Positions 4,824 through 59,365 of a stretch of 64,000 bases of DNA are shown piece by piece. Source of the DNA: a virus. The stretch's first letter is position 1. Every line of letters starts with the position of its first letter. The DNA lies in IMG/VR virus record IMGVR_UViG_3300012009_000091, positions 103,070 to 167,069 of that record; one strand, written 5' to 3'. Both the position numbers and the translations under genes were made by a program. Below the pieces are notes generated by a model, which made no database searches, had not been told where the DNA came from, and saw only the letters and a list, made by a program, of their open reading frames with translations.

Positions 4824-5789
4824 TTGATTGATGTTTATGGACCCGGTGTCCGCGAGTTAGCACGAAAAATCTGGCCATATGATAGGTCCGACGCCTTTGA
4901 CTATGAACACATTATCTGGGCAGCTGCATTGGTTTGTCGTGGACAGAACTGGATCATTATCTCGTTGAGGAACGGCTTCTTCGGTCCTCCACGAGATGTC
5001 CAGGATGTGTCGGATGCCCTCGGCCTGAGCCCTGAACATCTTCGAGCTGTTGAACACCAGCTGTATCATACGCTAAGAGTCTTCCTCGATGGGGACCCGA
5101 AACCGGGAGATCGGCCTGAGCCGATCAACCTCATCGAGGAAGACCGACATCGGTTAATGCGGAACAAGGATCTCCTTGCATGGCTGCAGATTGGAGAGAG
5201 CATCAAGGACCACTTTTTAGATCTAGGTATGCCTCACATTCGATTACCCAATCGACGGCGATGGATTCGCTATCGAAAAGTCGATGTAGAGCGCTGGCTT
5301 GCGAGATATAAAAAGCCTCGCCCTAAGCCACGGGCGAAAGGAGTGTTTGTGAGATTCACCGTACTGAAACCGCACTACAGAACGCAGCCCTGTAGATTCT
5401 GTGCAGAGATCAAAGAGCGTGGAGGAGATCTTCCATGCATACCTTTGTGCGATGGAACAGAGCAAGAGCAAATTGAACCGTATGTCAATTTCGCCTATGT
5501 GAATGCGTGTGATATTTTGGATATGATCGAGGAGTCGTACGACCATAACATCTATGGGCATTGGCCCTTGGACAAACTCCCCATAATTCGCCGCAAGATC
5601 ATTCACGCCATCAATGTGCCCGCAAATAGAGCACCCTATCTACGTGATCCCCATGTTGAAACCGGGGCTTCGGGAACGAAGTCGGTTATTGTCGGAACTT
5701 CCGAGGAAGCTGTTCTTCGACGGTTGTGGGATCTTTTGTCACTGGTGGACTGGGCTCAAGAGCATGGACGTGACCTTTACTATGGATAG
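4824..5789 (+). CDS. sigma70 region-4-like HTH + Xis/HTH_17-like fusion protein
   Basis: IISLRNGFFGPPRDVQDVSDALGLSPEHLRAVE resembles sigma r4; LMRNKDLLAWLQIG...IRYRKVDVERWL resembles HTH_17. Confidence 0.55.
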   Translation: MIDVYGPGVRELARKIWPYDRSDAFDYEHIIWAAALVCRGQNWIIISLRNGFFGPPRDVQDVSDALGLSPEHLRAVEHQLYHTLRVFLDGDPKPGDRPEPINLIEEDRHRLMRNKDLLAWLQIGESIKDHFLDLGMPHIRLPNRRRWIRYRKVDVERWLARYKKPRPKPRAKGVFVRFTVLKPHYRTQPCRFCAEIKERGGDLPCIPLCDGTEQEQIEPYVNFAYVNACDILDMIEESYDHNIYGHWPLDKLPIIRRKIIHAINVPANRAPYLRDPHVETGASGTKSVIVGTSEEAVLRRLWDLLSLVDWAQEHGRDLYYG

Positions 5790-6117
5790 AGAGATGAAAG
5801 AACAACTACAAAAAGCATTTCCAGCCGCTCAATTTGAGTCGGATGGAGAAGACGGGCTGGTATTGGTAGTCGATCAGATCCGACTGCGAGTCCAACGTGA
5901 TTCAACAGACGGATTCTACACGGTAGACATATTCCTCAATGCTGTAGCTGGTCAACAGCCTTTTCGGCTGTCCACTACGCGACCCGGAGAGCTCATAGAA
6001 GCTGTGCATTGTGCTCTGGCGTCGATACTGAGTTGGAACAGTCAGATCTGTACAATGTGTACGACGCTGCACAGCATTCTGTGTCCGGATCTTTATATGG
6101 ACCCCGCTGATCGCTAA
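5782..6117 (+). CDS. hypothetical protein
   Basis: ORF overlapping the end of the previous gene, followed by a terminator. Confidence 0.55.
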   Translation: MDREMKEQLQKAFPAAQFESDGEDGLVLVVDQIRLRVQRDSTDGFYTVDIFLNAVAGQQPFRLSTTRPGELIEAVHCALASILSWNSQICTMCTTLHSILCPDLYMDPADR

Positions 6118-6122
6118 GACAC

Positions 6123-6154
6123 GAAGACGGGAGGCCGCGCTCTCGTCTTCTTAG
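6123..6154 (+). terminator. intrinsic terminator
   Basis: GAAGACGGGAG/CTCTCGTCTTC stem followed by TTAG. Confidence 0.6.
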
Positions 6155-6240
6155 TATAAGGTCGCACGTTGTTCAGTCGTGTAAACCGCGATATACTCTC
6201 GCCATCCTCGTAGAGGGTCAAATTCATTTCGGAGGAATTC

Positions 6241-28414: not shown

Positions 28415-30321
28415 TGGATGTCGAACAATTGGTGCAAAAGATTCAGTACCATCGAGTGAAGTATTGGGCAGGCGAACCCGTGATTTCCGATACAGAGTTC
28501 GATCGGCTCGTCGAACAGCTACGGGAACTCGATCCCAACAATGTCATCCTGAATGAGATCGGGGTGGGGTTCATCGAAGGCCGACGGAAAGTGACTCATG
28601 AAATGCCTATGCTGTCTCTCCAGAAGTGCTACACAGTTGAGGACCTGTTGCGGTGGCGTAACAAGCTGTCGGATCCTGATTTGATTGTTAGCCCGAAGAT
28701 TGACGGTCTAGCTGTGGCGTTGCGTTACCGCAGTGGGACGTATGTTCAAGCCATCACTCGTGGAGATGGGCTAGTTGGGGATGACATCACGGAAAATATG
28801 CGGTTCGTGTCTGGCGTCGCTATGCATATTGATGAAGTTCAGGATATCGAAATCCGGGGCGAAGTGTTTATTCCTCGATCTGTTTTCGAGAACCTGTTTG
28901 CAGAGGAGTATAGCAACCCGCGAAATCTCGCGGTAGGTGCATTGAAACGCGACAACGCCAAAGAGACAGCGAAATTCTACTTGGTTTTTCAGGCCTATGA
29001 TGTTCTGGGAAAAGAGTTTTCTTTCGAGACGACCAAGTTCGACTGGCTGGCTTCAGTCAATTGCGTACCAGTTCCGGTAGAACTCGTTACGTCAGAAAAG
29101 GAGATCCGCGCTTTCCTTTTGACAACGCCTGATCAGTACCTTTATGAGATAGATGGCTTTGTGTTCAAAATTGCGAAGTGCTCTCTTCAGAAAGAGCTCG
29201 GCGCTACACGACATCATCCTCGTGGATCAATGGCGTACAAGCTTCAGGGGGATACCGGTGTGTCGTCAGTCAAGGCAATAGAGTGGCAAGTCGGCCGTAC
29301 AGGGGTGCTGACACCGGTCGCTCAGATCAAGACGATTACACTCTCTGGTGCAGTAATCAACCGAGTTAGTTTGCACAACACCAGTATCATGCGAGAGCTG
29401 GACAGCGATCTCCGGCTCTTGAATGCTTCGGTTCAAATTACGCGGCGCGGCGGGGTGATTCCCTATATCGAAAAGATGTTGACCCCTGGGGAGCCTCTTC
29501 AGGTCCCTCTGTATTGTCCGGAATGCAACGGCATCACATTCTTCGCAGACAGGGACCTGCTGTATGCAGAACACGCAATCGATTGTGCTCCGATTCTCTT
29601 GGGGACTCTGCAGCACTTCCTCAAGGTTCTTCGAGTCAAAGGATTCGGTCCTGCGATTTTGGAATCGTTGATTGAAGGCGAGTTCATTCAAACACCTGCA
29701 GACCTCTTGGGATTGACGGAAGACGACTTGCTATCCGTTGATCGGATAGGCGGAAAGCAGGCGAAGAAGCTTCTCGCTCGACTTCAAGAGGTGCGGCAGG
29801 TCCCTTTGTCAACTTTCCTCGTAGCACTAGGGATTCCCAATCTTGGGATTCAGCTCGCTTCGACATTGGCTGACCGCTACCCAACTTTGGGGGATTTGGC
29901 CAAAGCTAAAGAAGAAGATCTCCTTCAATTGCCTGGGGTAGGTGAGGTGGGATGCCGGATCGTCCAAGAGTGGCTTCCAGCTAAGAAGTACCTTATTCAG
30001 GACTTACTTAGACATATCCAAATCGAAGAAAATGTAAAGGACGAGGAGCCGATTGGGTCACTTCCCCTTGCAAACAAGTCTTTCTTGTTCACCGGTAAGC
30101 TACAGTACGCTACTCGATCTAGCGCTGAAGAGATTATCAAAAATCTCGGTGGGTCAATTGTATCTGCTGTGACTCGCAATTTAGACTATCTTGTAGTCGG
30201 AGAAACGTCTGGAGAAAGTGCCAAGCTCAAGCGAGCTCGAATGGTTCAGAGTGCTAAAGGAGCTCTTGAAATCATTGATGAGGATCAGTTTGCGCTTCTC
30301 GTTGGGAAGCGCAACCTGTAG
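28414..30321 (+). CDS. ligA: NAD-dependent DNA ligase
   Basis: PMLSLQK, KIDG, TRGDG, EIRGEV, NPRN, WQVGRTG, HhH repeats, C-terminal BRCT. Confidence 0.97.
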   Translation: MDVEQLVQKIQYHRVKYWAGEPVISDTEFDRLVEQLRELDPNNVILNEIGVGFIEGRRKVTHEMPMLSLQKCYTVEDLLRWRNKLSDPDLIVSPKIDGLAVALRYRSGTYVQAITRGDGLVGDDITENMRFVSGVAMHIDEVQDIEIRGEVFIPRSVFENLFAEEYSNPRNLAVGALKRDNAKETAKFYLVFQAYDVLGKEFSFETTKFDWLASVNCVPVPVELVTSEKEIRAFLLTTPDQYLYEIDGFVFKIAKCSLQKELGATRHHPRGSMAYKLQGDTGVSSVKAIEWQVGRTGVLTPVAQIKTITLSGAVINRVSLHNTSIMRELDSDLRLLNASVQITRRGGVIPYIEKMLTPGEPLQVPLYCPECNGITFFADRDLLYAEHAIDCAPILLGTLQHFLKVLRVKGFGPAILESLIEGEFIQTPADLLGLTEDDLLSVDRIGGKQAKKLLARLQEVRQVPLSTFLVALGIPNLGIQLASTLADRYPTLGDLAKAKEEDLLQLPGVGEVGCRIVQEWLPAKKYLIQDLLRHIQIEENVKDEEPIGSLPLANKSFLFTGKLQYATRSSAEEIIKNLGGSIVSAVTRNLDYLVVGETSGESAKLKRARMVQSAKGALEIIDEDQFALLVGKRNL

Positions 30322-30325
30322 TCAG

Positions 30326-30352
30326 AAAGCCCTCCTGGAGAGGGCTTTTTTA
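30326..30352 (+). terminator. intrinsic terminator after ligA
   Basis: AAAGCCCTC/GAGGGCTTT followed by TTTAG. Confidence 0.75.
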
Positions 30353-30357
30353 GGTAG

Positions 30358-30455
30358 GCTAAAAGAAGAGTACAAATAGAATTGACTCTTCTTTTACGAA
30401 ATAGAACGTCTCAATCCCCATCTGAACGGGGCACGTAGACTAGCCTTTCTCGTTA
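30358..30455 (-). ncRNA. candidate ~100-nt small RNA
   Basis: GTATAAG motif at 30460-30466 (minus); terminator AAAAGAAGAGT/ACTCTTCTTTT+AG; no ORF between them. Confidence 0.45.
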
Positions 30456-30611
30456 CTTACTTATACCTATTTCCAACGCAAAATGCACCCGCATTCTTGA
30501 CGATCACTTTGTCTCTAGAGGACAATCAAATTGCGGTGAGTACGTTCTGGTCCTCCAGTACTCGTCGTCAGGAGCCCTTGGCCCAGGGCTCCTAACTTCC
30601 TTGCATTGATG

Positions 30612-30646
30612 TTAAAAAGGAAGGGGCCTGACGATCCAGGCCCCTT
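30612..30646 (-). terminator. intrinsic terminator of the island operon
   Basis: AAGGGGCCTG/CAGGCCCCTT stem then CCTTTTT on minus. Confidence 0.7.
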
Positions 30647-30692
30647 GGGTTTGAGTGCAGAAGATGACTAGCCTTCTGCACTCGAGACGACC

Positions 30693-31091
30693 TTAGAGCC
30701 ACCAGTCGCCGCGGTATACGCGGATTTCCTGGCGCTCTTCGGCCTCTTCCTCTTCCTCTGTGTCGGTCCACTTTGAGGCCGTCCAGTACTGGTTCGGTTT
30801 CCACCGAACCTGGACGGTCTCGTGAACCTCTTCTTCCTCTTCCTCTTCCACCACCCACCAAGGTTGGTGGCGGTCGAGGACCCGAACCCAGTCCTGGATG
30901 CTTCGGGCCTCGAGCTCACGCGCCACGCGCGTAACGTGCTCGAGTTCCGCAGTCTGGACCAGACCTATCTGATGTAGGTCTTGCGCGATGCAGGACGCGT
31001 CGCGCAACAAGTCCATTCCGTGCATCCAGGCCCGGATACGCCGGGCGCTGATGACCTTGACCTCCCGTCGGTCGGTTACCGTGATATGCAC
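30693..31091 (-). CDS. hypothetical protein with poly-Glu tracts
   Basis: 132-aa ORF overlapping the end of the upstream gene. Confidence 0.6.
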   Translation of the reverse strand: MHITVTDRREVKVISARRIRAWMHGMDLLRDASCIAQDLHQIGLVQTAELEHVTRVARELEARSIQDWVRVLDRHQPWWVVEEEEEEEVHETVQVRWKPNQYWTASKWTDTEEEEEAEERQEIRVYRGDWWL

Positions 31092-32797
31092 AGTAACTCC
31101 CCCAACGAAGGGGTCAGCCCCTCAAGGCGCTTGGGCATCATCTCGTCGTTGAGATGTGCTCGACGCTCATACGCGTCGTCGAAGATCGTTACGGGCACCC
31201 CGTAACGATCTTCTAGCTCCCCCTGATGAGCTGAGTCATCCCAGGGCCGGGTAACCACGAAGAGACGGACGACTACCATCTCCTCGCTTCTCCAGCCCTC
31301 GGGCCCGGACTCTGTTCGCCCGTATCCCCGCACCTCTCCGATCACTCGTGCGTGGTCGGAGAGGCAATTAATGCCCCACTCCGCGTGAAGCCCGCCCACG
31401 TTTCGCACGCGTGCGGACTCCGGGAAGTGGTGGGCGACCATTACCGGCCGCTCCCAAGCAGTTCCCTGCTGGGGGCTCAGTAATATATCGTCAACCAGAT
31501 TCCACACACGCCAACCGACAAGGGACCCGTCTTCCGGGTCCTCTTTTGGGCGTGCAGCACGGATCTCTCTTTCCCTGACGTCCATGGACGTCAGCAGAGA
31601 ATACCATGCTTTATGGATCTGTGGGCGCAGGGAGCGGATCAGATGCCCTCGCTGGGCCCGGACCAACTTGGCGCGCCGCGCCCTTGAACTTCTGGCCCCC
31701 AGCAGAGGGTCTGATCGGAAGGCACCCGACTCAAGGCGATCTCGCCTCGTCCGCTGCGCGTTCATGGTTTCAGCCATGAACGCCACCAAGTCCTTTACGG
31801 TCTTGATGGCGGCCGTGTGCGTCCTTGGGCTGTTTACCGCCCAGGCCACCCACGATCGAGGCGAGGCATACGCCTCGGCTGCCTCGTGGCATATCTTCTC
31901 CAGGCTTACGGGACCGGCGTCCAGCGTCCAAACGAGGCCGCTTTGCGACCACCATTTGGGGTGAAGGCCGCACTGTTTTATGGTGCGAACCTCTTCGACC
32001 CCGATTCGTAGTCTGATTTTGCCCTTGTCATAGGCAACTTTTACGTCGCCATTGACTATTGCAGTCATCAACTTATCGTCGGGGTCCACCCACCGGAACC
32101 ATTTCAGCCACTTTCGGGCGGGCACGAGTGCCTGCTCTAACTGTGGCCGAATCGGCTGGAGACGCACCCACTCTGCGTGGAGACGCTCCAGCCGTGCCCA
32201 GAGACTCTCATCGTTCGGGCATACCAATTCGTCCCAGACGGCGCGGAGGAATGCGCCGCTCATCCGGGACAGCCGCTTCAACCACACGGTCTTAGTGTCG
32301 TGTGGGAGCGGCATAGGCTCACGCGCCCGGAGTTTCCTGCTCAGGCGCAGGATCGCCCGCACGCGCGTGCGGTTTCCGGGCCAGATGGGGCGTTCTGGCA
32401 GCATCGAGGCTAACGCCTTCGGATACTGCTCTGCCTTGATGCCAAGGCAGAACGCCCTGATCGCGGCTGAAGGGTCACAAGTGTACGGTGACCCCAACCG
32501 CGATGAACGCTGTTGAGTGGCGAGCCAATAGGCCACCCACTCATCCCACTTTTGGATGAGTCGGTTTGGCGGCAGCAGATTCCATCCTGCTTTCGCCAAA
32601 GCCCAGTCCACGCGATCCGCCGACCGGATTATCCCCAAACCTCGGAGCACGATCCGACCGTAGTCGGATGCGCTCTTGATTTTTCGGGCGGGCTTTGGGG
32701 AATAGCGCGCTCGAAAGGCCTCAGCGACAGTCCAGTCGCCGACTAGCCAATCCGCCTCTTCCTGGCGGAGCCAGGCGGCGGATGGAGTTGCACTCAT
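31076..32797 (-). CDS. hypothetical protein; C-terminal GWR...GLHA...VIGEV.G.G...GWR domain
   Basis: 573 aa; RBS AAGGAGGAG; GC-rich. Confidence 0.75.
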   Translation of the reverse strand: MSATPSAAWLRQEEADWLVGDWTVAEAFRARYSPKPARKIKSASDYGRIVLRGLGIIRSADRVDWALAKAGWNLLPPNRLIQKWDEWVAYWLATQQRSSRLGSPYTCDPSAAIRAFCLGIKAEQYPKALASMLPERPIWPGNRTRVRAILRLSRKLRAREPMPLPHDTKTVWLKRLSRMSGAFLRAVWDELVCPNDESLWARLERLHAEWVRLQPIRPQLEQALVPARKWLKWFRWVDPDDKLMTAIVNGDVKVAYDKGKIRLRIGVEEVRTIKQCGLHPKWWSQSGLVWTLDAGPVSLEKICHEAAEAYASPRSWVAWAVNSPRTHTAAIKTVKDLVAFMAETMNAQRTRRDRLESGAFRSDPLLGARSSRARRAKLVRAQRGHLIRSLRPQIHKAWYSLLTSMDVREREIRAARPKEDPEDGSLVGWRVWNLVDDILLSPQQGTAWERPVMVAHHFPESARVRNVGGLHAEWGINCLSDHARVIGEVRGYGRTESGPEGWRSEEMVVVRLFVVTRPWDDSAHQGELEDRYGVPVTIFDDAYERRAHLNDEMMPKRLEGLTPSLGELLCISR

Positions 32798-32889
32798 TTG
32801 TGCTCCTCCTTGGGCGCTTTTGCGCCCAGTTTTTGTCTTCGTTTGATACGTATCCCGTTTATACCAAACGTATCCCTCGTCTCACTACC

Positions 32890-33600
32890 GGGGCTTTGAG
32901 TGTGCCTCCACACTCCCACGTGAAACTCGATTGCGCGAGGTAGGACCATCCTATCCTCTGCAGGTCAGCTTCGTGGCCGATAGCTTCCGAGTATGCTGAT
33001 GATTGACCTGATTCACAGTGTCCAATTGTGAATCGCCATCAGCCGAAATGGGCGTGGCCAGCCCTCATGCAGTAAATTAGTGATCCGGCTTTATTGGGCT
33101 CCGGATTACGTTCTGCATATTGTTTCGTCACTGTGGTGCCACTTTCCACAGCTGTTTCTAGGGCAAGCTTCATCACTAGCTTGCAAGGATGCCTGACAGT
33201 GGACTACTGTCAGACTTTCAGAAGGCTTCTCATCTCATTACTAGAAGCAGGCTAGACTCCGTTCATGTAGACAAGTCGCATCTGTCCTTCTGATAGATCC
33301 GGTGATGTCGACTCTATTCAGAAGGCTCTACACTTCTATAAAGACGGGGGGTTAGTCATCCCCCCGGATGTTGCATCTGGGATGCCTCCCATAAACCTTG
33401 TAGGAAGTCCTACAAAGCTTACGGGAGGCACGCCCCCTTTCGGGGGCGCCTCCTTCTTCCTCATGCCCCAAAGGGGCATCTTGTGCAGCGGTGTCAGAAG
33501 CGCCTTACTGCTTCTGGCCTACTGCTTTGGGACAGCGACCTTTGTTCCGCCTCCCTGGGTGCGTAACCACCCGTCCCCCGTTTTAACGGGGGAGTTTGCC
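32890..33600. ncRNA. long hairpin-dense non-coding tract A (candidate large structured RNA)
   Basis: about 18 consecutive stems, no credible ORF; 22-bp stem at 33383-33430 has 3 G-U pairs on minus; GAAA loop on minus at 33431-33448. Confidence 0.6.
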
Positions 33601-33622
33601 TGTGTCGCGTCATCATCGAGCT

Positions 33623-33907
33623 CTACGCGGACGCCACAGGGGACCAATCCCCTGCGGCGAACAGGACCCCAAAAGGGATCCCGGGAGCCCAAATGAGGAG
33701 GCTGCCATCCGTAAGGATGGCGAGCTCCTCCTCGCCGGGCTCCTCTGCCGGCAATCTGCCGGCAGAGTAGAGCATCTCGATGATCAGCTGAGACGCGTAC
33801 TGATAACTCAGCCGCATCTCATCGCTGAACGCGACCTGTGAGAACGCCACTGGGTGGCACTCCCCACAGGTCGCGATTTCAACGATCGCGATCTCAAGAT
33901 TTTTCAT
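33623..33907 (-). CDS. hypothetical protein
   Basis: RBS GGAGG before MKNLEI; CGEC motif. Confidence 0.55.
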   Translation of the reverse strand: MKNLEIAIVEIATCGECHPVAFSQVAFSDEMRLSYQYASQLIIEMLYSAGRLPAEEPGEEELAILTDGSLLIWAPGIPFGVLFAAGDWSPVASA

Positions 33908-34007
33908 GTTCCTCCCGAACATGAGTTTCGTCCCTCACGCGGAACGGCGGATCGGGCGTATTATAGGGCCGCCCAATCTTCTACCCTCTGCGGCATAGCC
34001 GCATATA

Positions 34008-34103
34008 TGCAAGCCCTGGGAATCGAACCCAGGCGACGTTTGTCGCGTCCTTGGCTTGCGGTATGGGATATTGAGTCCCATCAATGCAACTGGGCAGGTC
34101 TGC
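34008..34103 (-). tRNA. tRNA-like element (non-canonical or pseudo-tRNA)
   Basis: T-arm CTGGG-TTCGATT-CCCAG and 7-bp acceptor GCAAGCC/GGCTTGC-A; no normal D-arm; upstream TGGGA-CTCAATA-TCCCA hairpin (CAA). Confidence 0.45.
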
Positions 34104-34423
34104 ATATTCCTTCTACTAGGCCTTGGGAGTGGGGTGGCGCTTTTCACAGCCTCTCGTGACCATATGGTCAACCGCCTGCTCCGTACCGTTCGATTACTCA
34201 ACACGACACGCTACTTTCGTGTTGAGGGCAACTTTTTCTGACGGGGTATTGCCAAGGTCCCCCATTACGCACCCACACCAAGTTACCCCCATTTTCGCTC
34301 AGGATTTCTCTGAACTTAGGGCCCTGGGCCTTTTGGCCTATACTTGTCTTCAGCTGTTAGGGATAGCTGTTAACCAGGGTTGATGGGATGGTTATACTTG
34401 CCGCCGAATATAGTCGGCGGCGG

Positions 34424-35587
34424 CTATGTTGGGTCGACGGCGATGACCGTCCCCAGCTTCATAGCCGGGGAATGGGTCATCGCCACCGTCGCCCCCACCC
34501 CTGGCTGGTAACAGGCCAGCCACGGCGTATTGTGGTACGCCATGGCTAGACTGATCGTCAGCCAATTGGGGCCTCGTCCACTTAGGACGATCCCCATTCC
34601 CGGCTGCACAGCCGGGGGGGTGACGTCGTTCAGATCGTCGACGGAGAATACTCCGCCGACGATCTCAAACGTGACGACGGCGAACTCGTCCCTCTCCTCA
34701 ACGGAGAAGGACAAGTTCGCCCCAGAGCCTTCAGATGAAGGCTCTTGACACCCGATTGGGACTGTGCCCAATCGGGGGTCGTTCACGCTTGCGGCTGCCG
34801 GGTGGCAGCCGTGAACGACGGACAGACCCAACCACGCGGGGCTGGGTCCGTCAAAAACGACGTGGTCGTCGGCCCCGAAGCCCCACCCACGGAGGGTGGT
34901 GTCGATTTTGGGAAGGTCTGTGCCTTCCCAATTGATCGACGAAACCACCCTGCCGTTGGGCAGGGTCTTCGTTATCGGAGCTTTTCCCAGCAGCTCTGAG
35001 AGCTGCTGGGTGGTGATGGTGGTGTCCATCGCCGTCTCCAGTGTCCCGGCGCTGAAATCGCACCGGGACAAGACCCGCTGGGCCAGTCTTTGCATTACTG
35101 GCCCAGCGTTGACCGTTCCCCGGTGAAGCCCGACAACCGTCCCCTCTAGAGGGTGGGTGTCGGGGGAGACGGTCTCCTCTCCGGCTAGCCGGCTTTTTAG
35201 GAGGGCTATACACCGTAGCCCGAGGTCTTCCCCAAAACGCCGCCACTCGTCCATAGCTTCGTCTTTTGACGAAAGTACTACGAACGCGTCACAACGCTTG
35301 AAAATTTCCTCGTTCTGTGGTGTAATTCGTCCCCCCACATCGACCAGTGTCAGAGGTAGGCCGACATTCTCCAATCCTGTCAGGACATAGTCCATGAATG
35401 AATTGGAAAAGTCGCCCTTACGTCTGATACGCTGGACGAGTTCTTGGGGGGCCGAATTGGCCCACGTACCTTCCCCGTCCGGACAAGCCCGGAACAAGAA
35501 GGTACCTTCCCGTGGAAGCAATTGCTTCAGGGAAGCGAAAAACACCGACTTTCCGGAATGAGGAGGACCGCAGATGATTACTTTCAT
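34424..35587 (-). CDS. csx3: P-loop NTPase fused to two Csx3/Crn3 (CRISPR ring nuclease-like) domains
   Basis: GPPHSGKS, ACPDGEG.W, LVDVGG; Csx3 motifs HGCHPAA...DPRLG and GIVLSGRGPNWL...YH..PWLACY.P..G..V..THS. Confidence 0.8.
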   Translation of the reverse strand: MKVIICGPPHSGKSVFFASLKQLLPREGTFLFRACPDGEGTWANSAPQELVQRIRRKGDFSNSFMDYVLTGLENVGLPLTLVDVGGRITPQNEEIFKRCDAFVVLSSKDEAMDEWRRFGEDLGLRCIALLKSRLAGEETVSPDTHPLEGTVVGLHRGTVNAGPVMQRLAQRVLSRCDFSAGTLETAMDTTITTQQLSELLGKAPITKTLPNGRVVSSINWEGTDLPKIDTTLRGWGFGADDHVVFDGPSPAWLGLSVVHGCHPAAASVNDPRLGTVPIGCQEPSSEGSGANLSFSVEERDEFAVVTFEIVGGVFSVDDLNDVTPPAVQPGMGIVLSGRGPNWLTISLAMAYHNTPWLACYQPGVGATVAMTHSPAMKLGTVIAVDPT

Positions 35588-35589
35588 CC

Positions 35590-36485
35590 TACTCCTCTCA
35601 CCAGAGAGTCATTTGCGCTCTACTCTTTCTGCTTGCACCCTACTGCAAGTGGAAATTTCAAGCTCCTGGGAAGACCTCCCAGTCGGGCAATTGACGAAAA
35701 TTGTTTTTACGTGACGCTCGTCAATTTGGTGCGTCACTATAAATACGCGGTTCTCGCCGCGTAAATAAAAATGGTTTAGCATCTGGTCAGGTAGGAAAGA
35801 CCAGGGATCATCAGGAAGATGATCTCCGCAAAGGACTTGCGGACCGTGCCCCGAGGATCGGGGTCTTTACAGAACTCATCCAGCATGTTGCATGCTGGGC
35901 AACCTACAAGGCGGACCGGGTTCTGATTCCAGTCCGACAGGAGTGCATTACGCTGCACAAACGACCACCATAACCTGGCAGTGGAGTCCGGAAATTCGCT
36001 TCCGGAACGGGTGGATCTTACCGAGTAACCACCATCTCGGCCCATGTTTAATGCTATTGGGGTGCAGGGACCTCTACGCGAGGTTGGCGGTGTAGATTTA
36101 GCTCTACACGAACTGATACTTGGTATTTTAGTCTGTAGTACCTTCAGACTATCCAGCTATGGCACTGGATGGCCAACAATCTAAGCCTGATTGCCCAAGG
36201 CAGCTCTTACCCAGAACTTGGGGAGTTCATACCCAGAACTCATAGGGCCTCCCATTGTAAAGGCGGGGTTGGTGCGCCTGCTCGTATAACTCCCTGAGCA
36301 AGGGGTTGGCACTTGGTAATCTGCCTTAGTGCCAGAGGCAGTTCATAACCCTGAACGGGGGCCTCCCATTGTAAAGGCGGGGTTGGTGCGCCTGGGGAAT
36401 ATTCGTGTGCCGAAGGGTGCGCGGTTGGGATCGGTGTTCTCCTTTTGGAGCCGATGTGCGCAAGTGGCACGTGGTAAGTTCCCTT
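35590..36485. ncRNA. long hairpin-dense non-coding tract C (candidate large structured RNA or leader)
   Basis: more than 20 short stems, pseudoknot, 36-nt repeat pair; GTATAAG promoter at 36491 on minus. Confidence 0.6.
36245..36394. repeat. perfect 36-nt direct repeat x2
   Basis: GGGCCTCCCATTGTAAAGGCGGGGTTGGTGCGCCTG at 36245-36280 and 36359-36394. Confidence 0.95.
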
Positions 36486-36490
36486 AAATA

Positions 36491-36497
36491 CTTATAC
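36491..36497 (-). promoter_or_regulatory. GTATAAG phage promoter motif (one of at least 17 copies)
   Basis: recurrent motif, typically 22-37 nt upstream of start codons. Confidence 0.7.
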
Positions 36498-36517
36498 TTA
36501 TCAGAGTCTTTATGGAT

Positions 36518-36572
36518 ACTAAAAGTTCAGGGTGGAGGTTTACAGAAGTTCCCAGATGCCACCCTGAACTTT
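36518..36572 (-). terminator. intrinsic terminator
   Basis: AAAGTTCAGGGTGG/CCACCCTGAACTTT followed by TTAG on minus. Confidence 0.7.
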
Positions 36573-36574
36573 GA

Positions 36575-36781
36575 CTAACGGCGGTTTTTACGCCGCCGGC
36601 GTCGTCGTCGGGAATTGTTTTCGGAGTGCGCATCCTCCCGACTCAAACGCGCACCCTCTTCTCGAAGTGCTTGGCGCTCCTCTGCCCAGAGGTCGCGCGC
36701 CGGTCCCCGCCGGACCGCGTCGATCACGGCAGGGGCGGCGTGCTTCGCCAGGGCGAGAAGCGCCTTCTTCTTTAGAGACAT
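36575..36781 (-). CDS. small basic protein with Arg tail
   Basis: GTATAAG at 36811, RBS AAGGAGG, own terminator. Confidence 0.7.
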   Translation of the reverse strand: MSLKKKALLALAKHAAPAVIDAVRRGPARDLWAEERQALREEGARLSREDAHSENNSRRRRRRRKNRR

Positions 36782-36811
36782 TTAACCTCCTTGGGTTGTC
36801 TCGTTAGATAC

Positions 36812-37519
36812 TTATACGTTTTGCCAACGAACGCCGGCAACTTGATGATCGTTTACATGTTGTGCCTTGAGTTCACATTGTACGCCGTAGAACGTTGCAG
36901 GACATTGATGGATAGAGGGGTCAAAACACGCCCGGCAGCGAGGCTCATAGATGTCCTCGGCACCCGGAAGAATCCGTTCGGAGGAGATTATCGTGCGGTG
37001 ATTGTAGATCGCTTGTTTTCCGCAGACACAGCACTGTGCGTACTTCATGAAGATTGTGTCTGCTACAGCCATCAATCGTAGAATAGGAAAGAAAGGCTGT
37101 CCTATGTAATCGGACATAAGTCCGACAACATAGACGTTGATACCAAGATGGTTCACTAGTGACATACAGACGTTCACTAGATCTTTGGGGAACATGTGCG
37201 CTTCTTCAATAGCGATGGTATTCACGGAAATGGCTCGTTCCATCTCCATGACGCATTTTGGTATTTGGAGTGGGTGTTCGAGTGGGATAGCTTTCCGAAC
37301 ACGTCCGTTGTGTGTTCGGATGACGTCTTGTCCGTCTCTAACATCCTTCTGGGGCTTGAAGATGGGTATGGCTCTATCTTCGAGGCTGTCGAACAGTAAT
37401 TCGGTTTTCCCTCCCCACATGGTGCCTGTGATTACGGTAAGTATTCCTGGAGTCCGCGTAGACGGTTCATCCATGTTGGATGAATCATTGGACTTTCCAT
37501 TTCCTCGCTCTCGGTCCAT
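36812..37519 (-). CDS. tdk: thymidine kinase (type II)
   Basis: GTMWGGKT, IEEAHMF, GL.SDY.GQPF, CCVCG, YEPRCRAC. Confidence 0.92.
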   Translation of the reverse strand: MDRERGNGKSNDSSNMDEPSTRTPGILTVITGTMWGGKTELLFDSLEDRAIPIFKPQKDVRDGQDVIRTHNGRVRKAIPLEHPLQIPKCVMEMERAISVNTIAIEEAHMFPKDLVNVCMSLVNHLGINVYVVGLMSDYIGQPFFPILRLMAVADTIFMKYAQCCVCGKQAIYNHRTIISSERILPGAEDIYEPRCRACFDPSIHQCPATFYGVQCELKAQHVNDHQVAGVRWQNV

Positions 37520-52099: not shown

Positions 52100-52300
52100 A
52101 CCCTAAGTGCGCATTTCTGCGCACAACTCCTTAGTTCATAACAGGAGCTCCGCTAGGAGTTTCTGTTAGCTTACGTAGGCTAAAAAAGTGAGCACGGTTC
52201 TCTAGGCTGATATGGATGAAGGCCAGTATAGAACTTCTTACCGCATACTAAAAATACGCGGGTCCGACTTACTCCTTTTGTCTCGCCGCGTACTGTAGAG

Positions 52301-52456
52301 TTATGGAGTAGACTTCTTCCGGCCGCCGTTCTGCGCTCGCAAGCGCATGCGGCGGCCGGCTCGCCAATCCTCGACGGCCTCTCGGCCGTGTCGGATCAGG
52401 AGCCCAGCCGCCACACCGCTTGCAAACGCAACGGTGGCGGTGATGAACAGTATCAT
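52301..52456 (-). CDS. 51-aa membrane peptide with basic tail (below track cutoff)
   Basis: MILFITATVAFASGVAAGLLIRHGRE...RKKSTP; GTATAAG at 52479 and RBS GGAGG. Confidence 0.6.
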   Translation of the reverse strand: MILFITATVAFASGVAAGLLIRHGREAVEDWRAGRRMRLRAQNGGRKKSTP

Positions 52457-52658
52457 GTTTCCTCCGTTTCTCTAATTACTTATACAGGATACTAAAAAAC
52501 GGGTGATTTCGTTCCCTTCATTGCGTATCCTTGATTCCGGTTCGACTCTCGAACTCTCCTCACAACTCTTGAGTTGGTTTTGGCAACAAGAGTCCTCACG
52601 GACTTCTTAATACCCTTGACGGGTCAACGGGAATCACCCGCTCGATCTCTCAACTGTC

Positions 52659-52850
52659 CTACAGATCAAGCCAGTTCTTGGCCCGATTGATCCGCCCTCC
52701 GGTTCGGCATCTGTCTTTCTGGCGGCTTGCTTTCACCTTACGCGATGCTTTTTGGGTCTTGTACTCAGACTTCAGCTTCCTCAGTGCAGCATCGGTCCGC
52801 TGTTGAACGACTTTCGCTTCTGCCCGACGGGTTTTTCGCGATCTTGCCAT
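52659..52850 (-). CDS. small basic protein
   Basis: GTATAAG at 52884 and RBS GGAG; K/R-rich. Confidence 0.6.
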   Translation of the reverse strand: MARSRKTRRAEAKVVQQRTDAALRKLKSEYKTQKASRKVKASRQKDRCRTGGRINRAKNWLDL

Positions 52851-52957
52851 TGGTTTCTCCGTTAGGTAGTTTCCGATCAAATACTTATACCTATGAAATC
52901 ATTAATTTTTTAGTTCAAATTCATGGTATAAGACGGAGCTGTCATAAAGGAGGAAAT

Positions 52958-56574: not shown

Positions 56575-57701
56575 TTAGGAGGGCTGGAAGATGATCGCGG
56601 TCTGTGTCTCTTGTTCGAGAGCGTGTTTCATGTCAGCAATGGACGATTCTTCCTTGTCGGCGAGATTCTCAGCGATTTTGATGAAGTTTTTCAGGGCTTT
56701 CTCAGCACTCTTGAGCAGCGCCGTTCCTCCCTCTGATGTGAGGTCTCCACCGGCCATTCCAGCGCGGCAGAGGGCGATTGTCTTCAGAATGTCTAGAAGT
56801 TGTCTATGGTGACTGATCAAGGCCATGAAGATCTTCTGTAGGCCAGTGATATTCGGCACGCCGATGTGCGTGTCATAGAACACGCAAGCCCGCGCCCACC
56901 CATCGGGCGTGCCTATGATTTTTTTATTTCTTGTCCTACGAACTGAGCATCGCTGACTGTGCGTCGTACTCGTTGCTCGAACCACGTGATGTTGACCATG
57001 ATCAAGTCTACGATGGCTGGGTTCTTCTGGAGGATCCATTGCAGACGTTTCTCAAAGAGTGTTCCAATGCTTTTCCAATCGCGGGAAAAGGCATTTGGAA
57101 GTTCGTTTGGGATATTCGAATCTCCGGGAATCTCGTTGTCGATTCTTTGAACTGTCAGGGCGTAGAGTAAGAATAGCCGGAGCTTCATCTTGGTGGTGGA
57201 CGTCATCGTATGCCCTACGATCTCGAAAATCCACCGATCGACTAAGGTGACTAATGTGGTTGGGATGGTACGAAGGACCAGTTTGATTTTGCCGGCGAAA
57301 AGGGGGACTTCTTGTTCTGCGAAGTCGTCCCACAGAAGTCGCGTTACGTCAATCGGTTCGAGCGACGCTTCGATTTTCGATCTCAACTGTTTGTTGTCTT
57401 CGAGGATTGGATCCAGATCTTTTAGTTTGGATCCTGCGTTGCCAACCATAGCAGCGATTCGGGAGGCGGTTTTGACTTCCTCTTCCGTTGCCGGTTGTAC
57501 GCTAGGGTTGGGGATTTCTTTCTTCTCTTCCTCTTTTGACTCCTCTACAGGAGTGAGGGGGTCTGCGTCGATCTCCTCTCCGCGGGCGATACGTGCTTGA
57601 CGATCGGCCTCTTCGGGAGTGTAGCCTCCGCTGAGTTTTTGGTTCTCAGAGTATCCGGCCCCGATACCCCGCTGTAACCGATCTTGAATTCTTGTTGACA
57701 T
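56575..57701 (-). CDS. tail assembly chaperone-like G/GT pair with -1 frameshift
   Basis: ORF 57701-56913 ends ATA AAA AAA TCA TAG; the -1 frame reads KKIIGTPDGWARAC... to 56575. Confidence 0.65.
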
Positions 57702-57772
57702 GGGTTCTCCTATTGTTGGTCCTCTGATAGTACGTTATCTTACAGAAGGACGGTACATTATCGAGGTCGATT

Positions 57773-58081
57773 ATGGAAATCGCAAGTATCATTCACGATC
57801 GAATTCGTCGAATGTTAGAGAAGACCGCGGCGCCCCGGTCACGGTTGTCAACGCGGGCGCTATTGCAACATGGAAAGGATATCTATGGAGGTCCGGTGTC
57901 TGCTTCGGGATTGGTGCCTGGTCCGGCTAGTCTGATTGATCCTAGATCGTCTGGTTCTCTGACACGGCGATTGTGGTCCTGGACCGGTCCGACTAGTGCT
58001 GACTCCGCAGGTCCAAGCACCGTCTCTTCTGGTCTTTTGGAGAGACTTCGTAATCGGACTTCTAAGGGTTCTGCAAGCTAA
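57773..58081 (+). CDS. small putative virion protein
   Basis: RBS GAGG; LEKTAA motif. Confidence 0.5.
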   Translation: MEIASIIHDRIRRMLEKTAAPRSRLSTRALLQHGKDIYGGPVSASGLVPGPASLIDPRSSGSLTRRLWSWTGPTSADSAGPSTVSSGLLERLRNRTSKGSAS

Positions 58082-58210
58082 GAAGAACTGGCTGAGGTGA
58101 TGTCGGATGACGTCACCTGGCTCAGCCAGTTCAAGAGATAGGATGTCTGTGCCGGCGATGTGATGCGAGCCCGCCGCCAGTTTGGGCGACGAACCTGCAC
58201 GTAGGGCAGG

Positions 58211-58885
58211 TTAGCGGCGGGACCGCTTCTTCCTGCTCTTCTTCCGGCTCTTCCTCCGGCCCTCGTCCCGGTCCTCGTCCCGGCGGTCGTTCCGCCGGTC
58301 GACAGCACTCTCTAACCTTTCGACCTGTTTGGCCGTCTCCGTGGCGCTCTGGAACGCCTTGGCCAGGTTGGACTGGCCCAGGCCCACGCTCTCGGCGTGG
58401 GCCCTCAGGTGCTCCCCCTGCGTAGCCACCTCCTGGTGGATGTTTGCCAGGAGGGCCTTCTTGGCATCATCACTCTCCTGCTGTCCCAGGAGGTTGAGAT
58501 GCGCCTCCAGACGGTCATGGGCCTTCTGGAGGGTCGTCAGGCCGTCATTGGACGACCCTAAGCGGGTAAATTCCTGCGTTAGCAGGAGCACCCGCTCCGT
58601 CACCAGGTCTGGCATGGCCTCGACGTGCCCCCGGAGGGCCGCCGTCTCGCAGAGGATATCCTCTGCGAGATCATCGAGGTCGTCTACCTTATGGCGGACG
58701 TCCCCGATGACCAACCGGTTCCAGATCGCCAGGCCGACGCCGGCGGCGCTTGTCACGGCGCCGCCGATGAGCAGGCCCTTGTCGAGCCCGCTCAGTTTTG
58801 TGGTTTGGCCTTGCGGCCGGAGGTTTGTTGCTTCGACACTCTCCCCTGCGGAGGGGAGAGCTGTGACGTTGTTAGGATTTCCCAT
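58211..58885 (-). CDS. TM + coiled-coil protein with basic tail
   Basis: RBS AAAGGAG; GC-rich. Confidence 0.7.
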   Translation of the reverse strand: MGNPNNVTALPSAGESVEATNLRPQGQTTKLSGLDKGLLIGGAVTSAAGVGLAIWNRLVIGDVRHKVDDLDDLAEDILCETAALRGHVEAMPDLVTERVLLLTQEFTRLGSSNDGLTTLQKAHDRLEAHLNLLGQQESDDAKKALLANIHQEVATQGEHLRAHAESVGLGQSNLAKAFQSATETAKQVERLESAVDRRNDRRDEDRDEGRRKSRKKSRKKRSRR

Positions 58886-58903
58886 CTTCTTTTTCTCCTT
58901 TGT

Positions 58904-59233
58904 TCACTTCGCCAAGTTGGCGAAGCGATTCTCCAGTTGACGTCTCGACGCGTCGAACTCGTCTCTGAGCTGCTCCCAGCGACGTCTCGACGCGTCTAAC
59001 TCTTCTTGGATGGCCCGGAGAGCCTTGTCGATCTCCTCGGACCATCCTTCTAATTCTTTGACTCGGCTGCGGGTCCCCCCGTTGGACACAAGGGCCCAAA
59101 TGGAGAACCCGACAGCCCCAACACTGGCCATCAGGGCTACTCCTGATGACCAGCCCATTTCTGCGGCGTCGTACGCCGGACGGTGCGGTGGTTGGTGCAC
59201 CACAACGACCGGTCCGCCGCCGTCTTGTTCCAT
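58904..59233 (-). CDS. TM + coiled-coil protein
   Basis: RBS GGAGGAG; GTATAAG at 59301; repeat E.DASRR x2. Confidence 0.7.
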   Translation of the reverse strand: MEQDGGGPVVVVHQPPHRPAYDAAEMGWSSGVALMASVGAVGFSIWALVSNGGTRSRVKELEGWSEEIDKALRAIQEELDASRRRWEQLRDEFDASRRQLENRFANLAK

Positions 59234-59365
59234 AGGCTCCTCCGCGTATGGTAAGTTTTGGTTATGCTACTAAAAATATTTAGCAGCGCGTCTCTACCCA
59301 CTTATACGGCGAAAGACGAAAAACTTCTTGACATTGGCAAGTTTGATAGATTAGGTTTTGCTTTG

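What the first reader, a model, noticed from the sequence alone, without database searches (positions are those of the whole stretch)
35590..36485. Tract C: ~900-nt structured RNA between the GTATAAG promoter and the csx3 fusion
Seen: more than 20 short stems (e.g. CCAGCATG/CATGCTGG, TCCGGAA/TTCCGGA, GTGTAGA/TCTACAC, TAGTCTG/CAGACTA, ATCCAG/CTGGAT, TGGCACT/AGTGCCA). A terminator-like TACGCGG/CCGCGTA+TTTATAG (minus, about 35737-35763) has the same stem as the terminator at 52255-52292. The ATG-TTG-CAT triloop hairpin core recurs in tract A (33368) and here (35885). Inference: either a stand-alone ~750-nt RNA ending at about 35737, or a giant attenuating leader controlling csx3.
Basis: partly seen in the sequence, partly recalled or inferred. 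Interest (0 to 1): 0.75.

Follow-up and report, generated by a model that had tools for sequence, protein, structure and literature searches.

The report
Hairpin-rich non-coding stretch before csx3
A 0.9-kb gene-free, hairpin-packed stretch in a 167-kb phage is real and probably transcribed, but the same dense hairpins fill a whole 6-kb block, including its protein-coding genes, so it reads better as the untranslated head of an unusually tightly folded transcript than as one large RNA machine.

Summary
Window 35590-36485 has 14 perfect hairpins of 6 bp or more, against 1.8 +/- 1.4 in shuffles, and folds better than shuffles on both strands (z -6.1 and -5.3). It is non-coding: no codon periodicity, no Shine-Dalgarno-led ORF, no protein or Rfam match. 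A phage-type promoter motif sits at 36484-36497, and a hairpin with a T-rich tail at 35737-35763 has a near-twin at 52255-52292.

The reading as one discrete 900-nt structured RNA is only partly supported. Hairpin density is a property of a GC-raised island at about 30.2-36.6 kb. It is strongest inside coding genes: against synonymous-codon shuffles, csx3 scores z -15 to -19, orf573 -14.6 and orf99 -7.8, while ligase, TMK and helicase score -2.3 to +0.3. The middle of the tract (36000-36400) shows no excess folding.

That middle part holds the one sequence-specific element: two identical 36-nt repeats, each followed by a related small hairpin, just behind the promoter. AAA-Csx3 genes in several uncultured bacteria are hyper-folded in the same way.

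No relatives of the tract and no RNA data exist, so transcription, ends and function are inferred. Best reading: an untranslated leader or leaky-terminated RNA of a hyper-structured csx3 transcription unit.

The parts
36484..36497 (-). Promoter-like 14-mer (GTATAAG core, extended). It is the same extended form as at 36804-36817 in front of orf68, and the core plus 3 bases recurs at 52881-52890.
   Evidence: (D6). GTATAAG is followed by SD + start + ORF of 40 aa or more within 70 nt in 18 of 32 copies, against 11.7% of random positions. This copy is not.
36395..36483 (-). First ~90 nt of the presumed transcript. It forms a nested three-stem fold that buries an SD-like AAGGAG. No start codon follows that SD-like site, and the only nearby start, a GTG at 36470 (orf76), lies upstream of it behind a weak SD-like AAGGGA.
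   Evidence: -26.5 kcal/mol, z -3.4, 1 of 200 shuffles as good. for the sequence and ORFs.
36359..36394 (-). Copy 1 of the exact 36-nt direct repeat. On the minus strand it holds a boxA-like CGCCTTTACAA.
   Evidence: 2 exact copies, 0 expected by chance, none elsewhere in the window; none in the genome; none in IMG/VR or JGI metagenome contigs.
36341..36356 (-). Small hairpin of the GTTC-loop-GAAC type, starting 2 nt after repeat copy 1.
   Evidence: The motif GTTCNGGGT...GAAC or GAGC occurs three times here. The one other match to the search pattern in the 167-kb genome (window -23661) is not such a hairpin.
36245..36280 (-). Copy 2 of the exact 36-nt repeat, with 114-nt start-to-start spacing.
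   Evidence: the 61-nt repeat alignment is 87% identical, that is 36/36 in the core and about 17/25 in the flank.
36202..36241 (-). Two more hairpins of the same GTTC...GAAC type after repeat copy 2. The second has a U-G pair only on the minus-strand RNA.
35783..36170 (.). Run of nine unrelated perfect hairpins (stems 6-8 bp, loops 3-10 nt), several back to back. This is the most hairpin-dense part of the tract.
   Evidence: 22.8 per kb. They are perfect Watson-Crick palindromes, so the strand cannot be told. Excess folding is about -13 kcal per 200 nt on both strands.
35737..35763 (-). Terminator-like hairpin (7-bp stem, 6-nt loop) followed by an interrupted T-run. It is a sequence twin of 52255-52292, which closes a 51-codon unit.
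   Evidence: z -3.3. A sigma-70-like -35/-10 pair overlaps it.
35588..35736 (-). Last ~150 nt before csx3. It holds two more perfect hairpins and the GAGGAG Shine-Dalgarno of csx3. No GTATAAG motif lies here.
34424..35587 (-). AAA-2xCsx3 (Crn3) fusion gene, the downstream cistron. Its coding sequence is itself hyper-folded.
   Evidence: Pfam, NCBIfam, PADLOC AAA-Csx3; z -15.4 and -19.4 against synonymous-codon shuffles.
30200..36600 (-). Hyper-structured island with GC up to 0.62 in its coding parts (about 0.50-0.53 in tract C, against about 0.50 for the phage) that contains the tract. It holds orf132, orf573, tract A, orf99, tract B, csx3 and tract C.
   Evidence: Excess folding is -10 to -48 kcal per 200 nt, against a genome background of -1.8 +/- 5.1.

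Best explanation
Tract C is a true non-coding stretch. It is most likely transcribed leftward from the phage-type promoter motif at 36484-36497, as the untranslated head of the csx3 transcription unit. A hairpin terminator with a broken T-run at 35737-35763 would stop part of the polymerases, giving an RNA of about 735 nt, and let the rest run into csx3 (inferred).

Its hairpins are not the architecture of one large folded RNA. They are the same generic, mutually unrelated short hairpins that saturate the whole ~6.4-kb island. In the coding genes, synonymous sites have been recruited to make the sense RNA fold far beyond chance (shown). What is selected therefore seems to be RNA that is double-stranded almost everywhere. 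The likely purpose is resistance to single-strand-specific RNases or to RNA-guided targeting while an anti-type-III ring nuclease is being made, or simply long RNA life (inferred).

The only sequence-specific element in the tract is the tandem pair of identical 36-nt repeats, each followed by a GTTC...GAAC hairpin, right behind the promoter. It is probably a protein-binding site. By position and by a boxA-like core it resembles a nut- or put-type antitermination signal, which would let polymerase pass the hairpin field (speculative).
For: Non-coding: period-3 z 0.7 against 6-30 for csx3, orf573, orf99, TK, TMK and ligase. Coding scores are negative. There is no SD before orf89 or orf57, while real genes here carry a GGAG-type SD. 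The 89-aa ORF has no relative among 1.84 billion representatives. There is no Pfam or PHROG hit at E up to 1, and no alternative code opens the tract.

Promoter: GTATAAG precedes SD + start + ORF in 18 of 32 copies against 11.7% at random positions. The extended 14-mer is shared with the orf68 promoter.

Terminator: the hairpin is stable (z -3.3) and is the twin of an element that closes a 51-codon unit.

Island-wide hairpins. Against synonymous shuffles, csx3 scores -15.4/-19.4, orf573 -14.6 and orf99 -7.8, versus ligase -0.8, TMK +0.3 and helicase -2.3.

RNA level: the sense strand holds more of the excess than the antisense strand in 9 of 9 hyper-folded genes (ratio 1.10-1.78) and over the island (-682 against -539 kcal).

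Link to the gene family: AAA-Csx3 genes of L005, L007, L008, L009, L011 and L014 score z -9.5 to -14.8, while their flanking genes score -3.3 to +2.6. A second hyper-folded, GC-rich block in the phage is a MYG1/UPF0160 gene, a family I take from general knowledge, not checked here, to be DHH-type phosphoesterases.

Repeats: the 36-nt core is 36/36 identical while the flank is about 68% identical. The repeat units are not themselves folded (z -0.4 and +1.3), which fits a single-stranded or DNA binding site.
Against: Transcription could not be observed, so promoter use, RNA ends and read-through are inferred from motifs only. Inside tract C the excess folding shows no strand bias (plus -58, minus -53 kcal). 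No stem carries a G-U pair that would name the RNA strand, apart from one in the third small hairpin.

The island may have internal promoters: a TATAAT before orf99 and a GTATAAA before orf573, and a sigma-70-like pair overlaps the terminator. So csx3 may not depend on the tract at all. A 0.9-kb leader is costly for a phage. The nut-like reading rests on an 11-base resemblance found after the fact and on arginine-rich small proteins with no family match. The RNase-resistance idea has not been tested. Earlier notes of this scan report GC-rich hairpin-rich islets with no CRISPR link, so the cause may be more general.
Confidence: 0.45

Rival explanations
1. Stand-alone ~735-nt non-coding RNA with its own job, running from the promoter at 36497 to the terminator at 35737. 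It could be a decoy or sponge for host RNases or for the type III complex, working beside the Csx3 enzyme.
For: The promoter-without-gene plus terminator punctuation matches the phage's small units at 52.3-52.9 kb. The terminator twin there does end a unit. There is published precedent for RNA partners of an anti-type-III protein: the AcrIIIA1-associated t(m)RNA fragments that bind RNase R (PMC11662646). Two further non-coding hairpin tracts lie in the same island, and one contains a tRNA-like minihelix.
Against: The T-run of the terminator is interrupted. There is no Rfam match. The three tracts share no sequence. The hairpins are generic and no denser than in the neighbouring coding RNA. No conservation can be shown.
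Confidence: 0.2
2. Non-functional or weakly functional spacer DNA. It would have been acquired with the island or left by gene decay, with its perfect palindromes produced by a mutational process such as template switching at quasi-palindromes, rather than by selection on an RNA.
For: The hairpins in the tract are perfect Watson-Crick palindromes with no G-U pairs and no strand bias, as a DNA-level process would give. There are no relatives and no family. The middle of the tract is unfolded.
Against: Phage genomes rarely keep 0.9 kb of junk. A promoter motif of the phage's own type sits exactly at its head. The 36-nt repeats are 100% identical while their flanks have diverged, which argues for constraint. 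In the coding genes the excess is larger on the sense strand, which argues for selection on RNA in the same island.
Confidence: 0.12
3. Ligand-sensing attenuator or riboswitch-like leader, for example one that senses cA4 or another nucleotide signal and gates read-through into csx3.
For: A terminator-like hairpin lies 150 nt before csx3. Two tandem similar units lie behind the promoter, which recalls tandem aptamers.
Against: The tandem units fold no better than shuffles on either strand. No riboswitch family matches even at E up to 5. No anti-terminator alternative pairing was found. No homologous leaders exist to show a conserved aptamer. Upstream regions of cellular csx3 homologues share no sequence with the tract.
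Confidence: 0.06
4. The tract hides one or more small protein genes: orf76 at 36240-36470, which starts 27 nt after the promoter motif, orf89 at 35776-36045, or orf57 at 35609-35782.
For: The distance from promoter to the GTG of orf76 (27 nt) is in the range of real units (22-45 nt). A weak SD-like AAGGGA precedes it. Both 36-nt repeats are in frame in orf76. Earlier notes of this scan judged some hairpin-rich GC islets to be orphan small genes.
Against: There is no codon periodicity, while the 300-nt orf99 gives z 6.0. Coding scores are negative. orf89 and orf57 have no SD. orf89 has no relative in 1.84 billion representatives. The homologous flank after repeat 2 lies outside orf76, so the duplication is not a protein repeat. 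The repeats are identical at the DNA level.
Confidence: 0.07
5. A DNA-level or CRISPR-mimic element. The two 36-nt repeats would be a mini-CRISPR array or solitary-repeat RNA anti-CRISPR, or iterons or operators of a replication or recombination site.
For: The repeats are 36 nt, a typical CRISPR repeat length, and lie next to a CRISPR-associated gene. They are exact copies.
Against: The spacer would be 78 nt, about twice the usual length. Neither repeat end looks like a known repeat end, which is my reading and not a test. The repeat core is absent from IMG/VR and from 241 million JGI metagenome records. There is no GC-skew turn at the site on the genome scale. No replication or recombinase gene lies nearby.
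Confidence: 0.06

Closest known systems
nut sites of lambdoid phages (boxA + boxB hairpin, read by arginine-rich N proteins) and put sites of HK022
   Same: The position is right behind a promoter and ahead of terminator-like hairpins. The element occurs in tandem copies. An unpaired conserved block contains a boxA-like core and is followed, 2-4 nt after the repeat ends (about 12-14 nt after the core), by a small hairpin. Small arginine-rich proteins are encoded nearby (orf68, and the 63-codon ORF at 52659-52850).
   Different: The boxA match needs two gaps. The hairpin loops are not GNRA-like pentaloops. The arginine-rich proteins match no N family. No function has been shown.
Large 'ornate' bacterial and phage RNAs (GOLLD, ROOL, OLE, raiA)
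   Same: It is a long non-coding stretch in a phage with strong predicted folding.
   Different: There is no Rfam match at gathering score or at E up to 5. No conserved multi-branch architecture can be shown. The folding is a string of local hairpins that continues into coding genes.
RNA anti-CRISPRs and solitary repeat units, and virus-borne mini-CRISPR arrays
   Same: Exact 36-nt repeats lie beside a counter-defence-type gene in a phage.
   Different: The spacing is 78 nt. No matching CRISPR repeat was found anywhere searched. The flanks of the repeats are themselves homologous, as in a tandem duplication.
AcrIIIA1 with its associated t(m)RNA fragments (PMC11662646)
   Same: It is a phage counter-measure to type III CRISPR that pairs a protein with structured RNA. 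A tRNA-like minihelix lies in the same island (tract B).
   Different: The protein is unrelated. Those RNAs are host or phage t(m)RNA fragments, not a dedicated 0.9-kb tract.
Genomes of single-stranded RNA phages (MS2, Q-beta), where coding RNA is folded throughout
   Same: Coding sequence and dense secondary structure are superimposed, and the structure is visible against synonymous shuffles.
   Different: Here it is a 6-kb part of a DNA phage, plus cellular AAA-Csx3 units, not an RNA genome.

Membership tests
Any Rfam family (riboswitches, introns, GOLLD/ROOL/OLE, sRNAs) | Covariance-model score at or above the family's gathering score | tested here: not met
   0 matches in the whole window; in 32700-36900 at E up to 5 there are only five weak hits, none inside 35590-36485.
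Intrinsic (factor-independent) terminator | GC-rich stem-loop directly followed by a run of U on the transcribed strand | tested here: inconclusive
   The 7-bp stem with 5 G-C pairs and a 6-nt loop is met. The tail is T-T-T-A-T-A-G, an interrupted run, whereas the twin at 52255 has five T.
CRISPR array, mini-array or solitary-repeat RNA anti-CRISPR | Repeats of 23-50 nt separated by spacers of similar length | tested here: not met
   Two 36-nt repeats are separated by 78 nt, with no third copy.
CRISPR array, mini-array or solitary-repeat RNA anti-CRISPR | Repeat matches the CRISPR repeat of a host or of other elements | tested here: inconclusive
   There is no exact match of the repeat or of its 25-nt core in IMG/VR or JGI metagenome contigs.
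Lambda-type nut site | boxA consensus followed by a boxB hairpin that binds an N-family protein | tested here: inconclusive
   A boxA-like 11-mer lies in both repeats and a hairpin begins 2-4 nt after each repeat, about 12-14 nt after the 11-mer. The loops differ from known boxB. Nearby arginine-rich ORFs have no N-family hit.
Riboswitch or ligand-sensing attenuator | Conserved aptamer fold with alternative terminator and anti-terminator pairing | tested here: not met
   The candidate tandem units fold no better than shuffles. There is no family match. Conservation cannot be tested for lack of relatives.
Protein-coding gene | Codon periodicity, ribosome-binding site, relatives | tested here: not met
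   Period-3 z is 0.7. Coding scores are negative. There are no homologues or families.
AAA-Csx3 (Crn3 ring nuclease fusion), the downstream gene | P-loop domain plus Csx3 domain scoring above curated cut-offs | tested here: met
   Pfam Cas_csx3 88.5 bits against a cut-off of 21. NCBIfam TIGR02579 89.9 against 55.4. PADLOC AAA-Csx3 at 1.8e-67 over the full length. 868 homologues.

The most novel reading that the evidence does not exclude
The island, and AAA-Csx3 units in several uncultured bacteria, may be 'armoured' transcription units. Their RNAs would have been selected, down to synonymous sites and GC content, to be double-stranded almost throughout. The ring nuclease that switches off cyclic-oligoadenylate signalling could then still be made while single-strand-specific collateral RNases (Csm6/Csx1-type) are active. 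In this reading tract C is the untranslated part: a tandem protein-binding, nut-like signal that lets polymerase cross the hairpin field, plus hairpin RNA that may also act as a nuclease decoy.
Probability: 0.15. Interest if true: 0.85.

Novelty: new variant of a known kind. Interest (0 to 1): 0.55.

Why it matters
Taken alone, the tract is an uncharacterised phage leader or non-coding RNA with no relatives. That is of moderate interest and cannot be tested by comparison at present.

The checks turned up something broader. Selection for RNA folding overrides synonymous-codon choice (z to -19) in a phage counter-defence island. It appears again in AAA-Csx3 units of several bacterial lineages, while flanking genes are ordinary. 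If this reflects protection of ring-nuclease mRNA from the RNases it must switch off, it would be a new layer in type III CRISPR conflict. It would also give a simple rule for spotting such genes.

In addition, no Crn3/Csx3 was found in 28,114 cultured phage genomes (PMC12409355), so a phage-borne AAA-Csx3 is unusual in itself.

Tried and rejected
- **Known RNA families:** none matched, and none lies upstream of csx3 in nine homologous loci. No tRNA or tmRNA was found.
- **Relatives of the tract:**
  - No match in the phage collection by blastn.
  - No match to the repeat in IMG/VR or to the repeat core in JGI metagenomes.
  - No look-alike in earlier windows of this scan.
- **Relatives of the phage:**
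  - The helicase and csx3 found no IMG/VR relative.
  - The nearest thymidine kinase is 64% identical, on a 1-kb contig.
- **Expression:** no RNA holder is listed among the sequencing runs. Three DNA runs of one microbial-mat sample hold the stretch.
- **Alternative genetic codes:** none opens the tract.
- **Upstream regions of cellular csx3 homologues:** several are also ORF-poor for 0.6-2 kb, but they share no sequence with the tract. I dropped the idea of a conserved leader RNA.
- **Replication origin:** genome-wide cumulative GC skew has no turn here.
- **Paralogy among tracts A, B and C:** none.
- **Target of the 36-nt repeat inside the phage genome:** nothing longer than a 12-mer.
- **orf573 function:** no family in Pfam, PHROGs, NCBIfam or PADLOC, and only a poor Atlas model.
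- **My hexamer coding model:** it proved weak, since it failed to score the thymidine kinase gene, so it is used only as minor support.
- **G-U against A-C counts at stem ends:** too few to decide the strand (10 against 4 island-wide, none in the tract).

Full report
**Setting.** The window is bases 103070-167069 of a complete 167,069-bp phage record with 55-bp terminal repeats. It was assembled from a microbial-mat metagenome. Tract C (35590-36485) lies between two minus-strand units. Downstream is an AAA-2xCsx3 fusion gene at 34424-35587, confirmed by Pfam, NCBIfam and PADLOC. Upstream are a 68-codon ORF (36575-36781) and thymidine kinase (36812-37519).

- Counting perfect hairpins with loops of 3-12 nt, the tract has 27 with stems of 5 bp or more and 14 with 6 bp or more.
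- In 300 dinucleotide shuffles the means are 7.3 +/- 2.6 and 1.8 +/- 1.4, and no shuffle exceeded 6 for stems of 6 bp or more.
- The whole tract folds better than shuffles on either strand, with z -6.1 (minus) and -5.3 (plus).
- The hairpin at 35744-35763 with its T-rich tail is stable (z -3.3). It shares 10 + 11 bases with an element at 52255-52292. That element closes a promoter-SD-51-codon-ORF unit.

**Is it non-coding?** Yes, on several independent counts.
- There is no codon periodicity (z 0.7). csx3, orf573, TMK, ligase, TK and even the 300-nt orf99 give z 6-30.
- The three largest ORFs (89, 76 and 57 aa) have negative coding scores.
- orf89 and orf57 lack the strong GGAG-type ribosome site that real genes of this phage carry.
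- The 89-aa ORF has only itself as a match among 1.84 billion representatives.
- No stop-to-stop frame matches Pfam or PHROGs at E up to 1.
- No reassigned stop codon opens the tract.

**Is it transcribed?** This can only be inferred.
- GTATAAG behaves as a promoter element. Of its 32 copies, 18 are followed within 70 nt by SD + start codon + ORF of 40 aa or more, against 11.7% of random positions.
- The copy at 36491-36497 belongs to an extended 14-mer shared with the promoter of orf68. No gene start follows it.
- From it to the terminator-like hairpin is about 735 nt, and csx3 starts 150 nt further on.
- No GTATAAG lies between. A sigma-70-like pair overlaps the terminator, and promoter-like hexamers precede other island genes. 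So csx3 may or may not depend on this promoter.
- No RNA run holds the sequence.

**The main correction.** The hairpins are not a property of the tract.
- Perfect hairpins run at 5-10 per 500 nt from about 30.3 to 36.3 kb, against about 1.5 elsewhere. They include stems of 9-15 bp inside the reading frames of csx3 and orf573.
- Excess folding energy per 200 nt is -1.8 +/- 5.1 kcal over the first 86 kb of the genome.
- In the island it is -10 to -48 kcal. It peaks inside orf99 and csx3 and is weakest (-1 to -3) in the middle of tract C.
- Shuffling synonymous codons, which keeps protein and codon usage, gives these z-scores:

| Gene | z |
|---|---|
| csx3 | -15.4 and -19.4 (two runs) |
| orf573 | -14.6 |
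| orf99 | -7.8 |
| orf132 | -4.7 |
| thymidine kinase | -4.5 |
| ligase | -0.8 |
| TMK | +0.3 |
| helicase | -2.3 |

- A second such block in the phage is a GC-rich MYG1/UPF0160 gene.
- In all nine hyper-folded genes tested, the sense strand holds more of the excess than the antisense strand, with ratios of 1.10-1.78. This points to selection on the mRNA rather than on the DNA.

**The same trait elsewhere.**
- The nearest homologues of the fusion protein are cellular, at 55-61% identity, and include a Bipolaricaulota genome.
- AAA-Csx3 genes of L005, L007, L008, L009, L011 and L014 are hyper-folded (z -9.5 to -14.8). Several of these are Patescibacteria or Saccharibacteria. The genes are also richer in GC than their loci.
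- L002, L012, L013, L015 and L027 are not hyper-folded.
- In these loci the trait covers csx3 and some co-oriented neighbours (z -10.4) but not the flanking genes (z -3.3 to +2.6).
- Earlier notes of this scan describe GC-rich, hairpin-rich islets in similar genomes, one of them next to a TrmB-like regulator as in L002, L007 and L009. Those notes left the trait unexplained.

**What is specific to tract C.**
- Two exact 36-nt repeats lie 114 nt apart, at 36245-36280 and 36359-36394. They sit just behind a 90-nt 5' fold (z -3.4).
- Their flanks are homologous but diverged: the alignment is 61 nt at 87% identity, that is 36/36 in the core and about 17/25 beside it. The 36-mer is therefore held constant, or is homogenised.
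- Each repeat is followed by a small GTTC-loop-GAAC hairpin. There are three such hairpins here. Only one other place in the genome matches the search pattern, and it is not such a hairpin.
- The repeat units fold no better than shuffles, so the repeat is more likely a binding site than a structure.
- On the minus strand it contains an 11-mer resembling boxA. orf68 ends in RRRRRRRKNRR, and a 63-codon ORF at 52659-52850 begins MARSRKTRRAEAK. Both recall arginine-rich RNA-binding peptides, but neither has family support.
- The nut-like antitermination reading is therefore a lead, not a finding.
- A weak extra lead is that GTTC[T/A]G recurs three times within 190 nt upstream of the closest csx3 homologue (L086/L087).

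**Verdict.**
- The tract is a real, probably transcribed, non-coding stretch bounded by the phage's own punctuation.
- The inference of one large structured RNA or giant attenuator is weakened, because the folding signal is generic and island-wide, is strongest in coding RNA, and is absent from the promoter-proximal 400 nt.
- The most likely role is the untranslated leader of a hyper-structured csx3 unit, with a leaky terminator and a tandem protein-binding element.
- A stand-alone decoy RNA, spacer DNA shaped by a palindrome-making mutational process, small genes, a riboswitch and a CRISPR mimic remain as lesser rivals.
- None can be settled without RNA data or relatives.

Noticed in passing
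window 30200-36600: The whole GC-raised island is hyper-folded, including the coding genes orf132, orf573, orf99 and csx3. Synonymous-shuffle z-scores range from -4.7 to -19, and the excess is larger on the sense strand.
   Followed up: yes
L085:1622-2608 (genome 100121-101107, just left of the window): A second GC-rich (0.6), hairpin-dense block is a MYG1/UPF0160 gene (Pfam 2.9e-75). If, as I recall but did not check, this family is a DHH-type phosphoesterase, it is a possible second signal-degrading counter-defence gene.
   Followed up: partly
L005, L007, L008, L009, L011, L014 (csx3 at about 5001-6190 in most): Cellular AAA-Csx3 genes, several in Patescibacteria or Saccharibacteria, are hyper-folded and GC-raised relative to their flanking genes. 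L002, L012, L013, L015 and L027 are not.
   Followed up: partly
window 34009-34059 (minus), tract B: tRNA-like minihelix with a 7-bp acceptor-like stem, a 5-bp hairpin and a T-arm with a GGTTCGATTCC-type loop. It has no D or anticodon arm. Ensemble frequency is 0.87 and z is -4.2. There is a weak Rfam tRNA-Sec hit (E 1.8), and ARAGORN does not call it.
   Followed up: partly
window 36575-36781 (minus) and 52659-52850 (minus): Two small basic ORFs behind GTATAAG promoters carry arginine-rich stretches, one C-terminal and one N-terminal and lambda-N-like. Neither has a family match.
   Followed up: partly
window 52250-52890 (minus): Two compact units of promoter, SD, small ORF (63 and 51 codons) and hairpin terminator. 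The terminators here, and the one at 36510-36577, are followed by a shared T-run plus AGTAT, directly before the next GTATAAG.
   Followed up: partly
window 30326-30466 (minus): A GTATAAG promoter motif at the left edge of the island has no ORF behind it. It points at the 3' end of the ligase gene and is followed by strong hairpins. It may give a ~140-nt small or antisense RNA. Other gene-less copies lie at window -12115, -11924 and 55879.
   Followed up: no
window 57700-59300: Another local peak of perfect hairpins, up to 13 per 900 nt. It was not examined.
   Followed up: no
L086:575-690 and L087:1966-2081: GTTC[T/A]G occurs three times within 190 nt upstream of the closest csx3 homologue (61% identity), echoing the GTTC...GAAC hairpins of tract C. 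It may be a shared regulator site, or chance.
   Followed up: partly
L002:4017-5351 and L014:4956-6236: Antisense ORFs of 426-444 codons span the whole csx3 gene in two homologous loci.
   Followed up: no
window 34424-35587: A survey of 28,114 cultured phage genomes reported AcrIII-1, Csx20 and Csx16 as the ring nucleases found, with no Crn3/Csx3 among them (PMC12409355). My IMG/VR scan with a family alignment also found no other viral copy. A phage-borne AAA-Csx3 therefore seems rare.
   Followed up: partly
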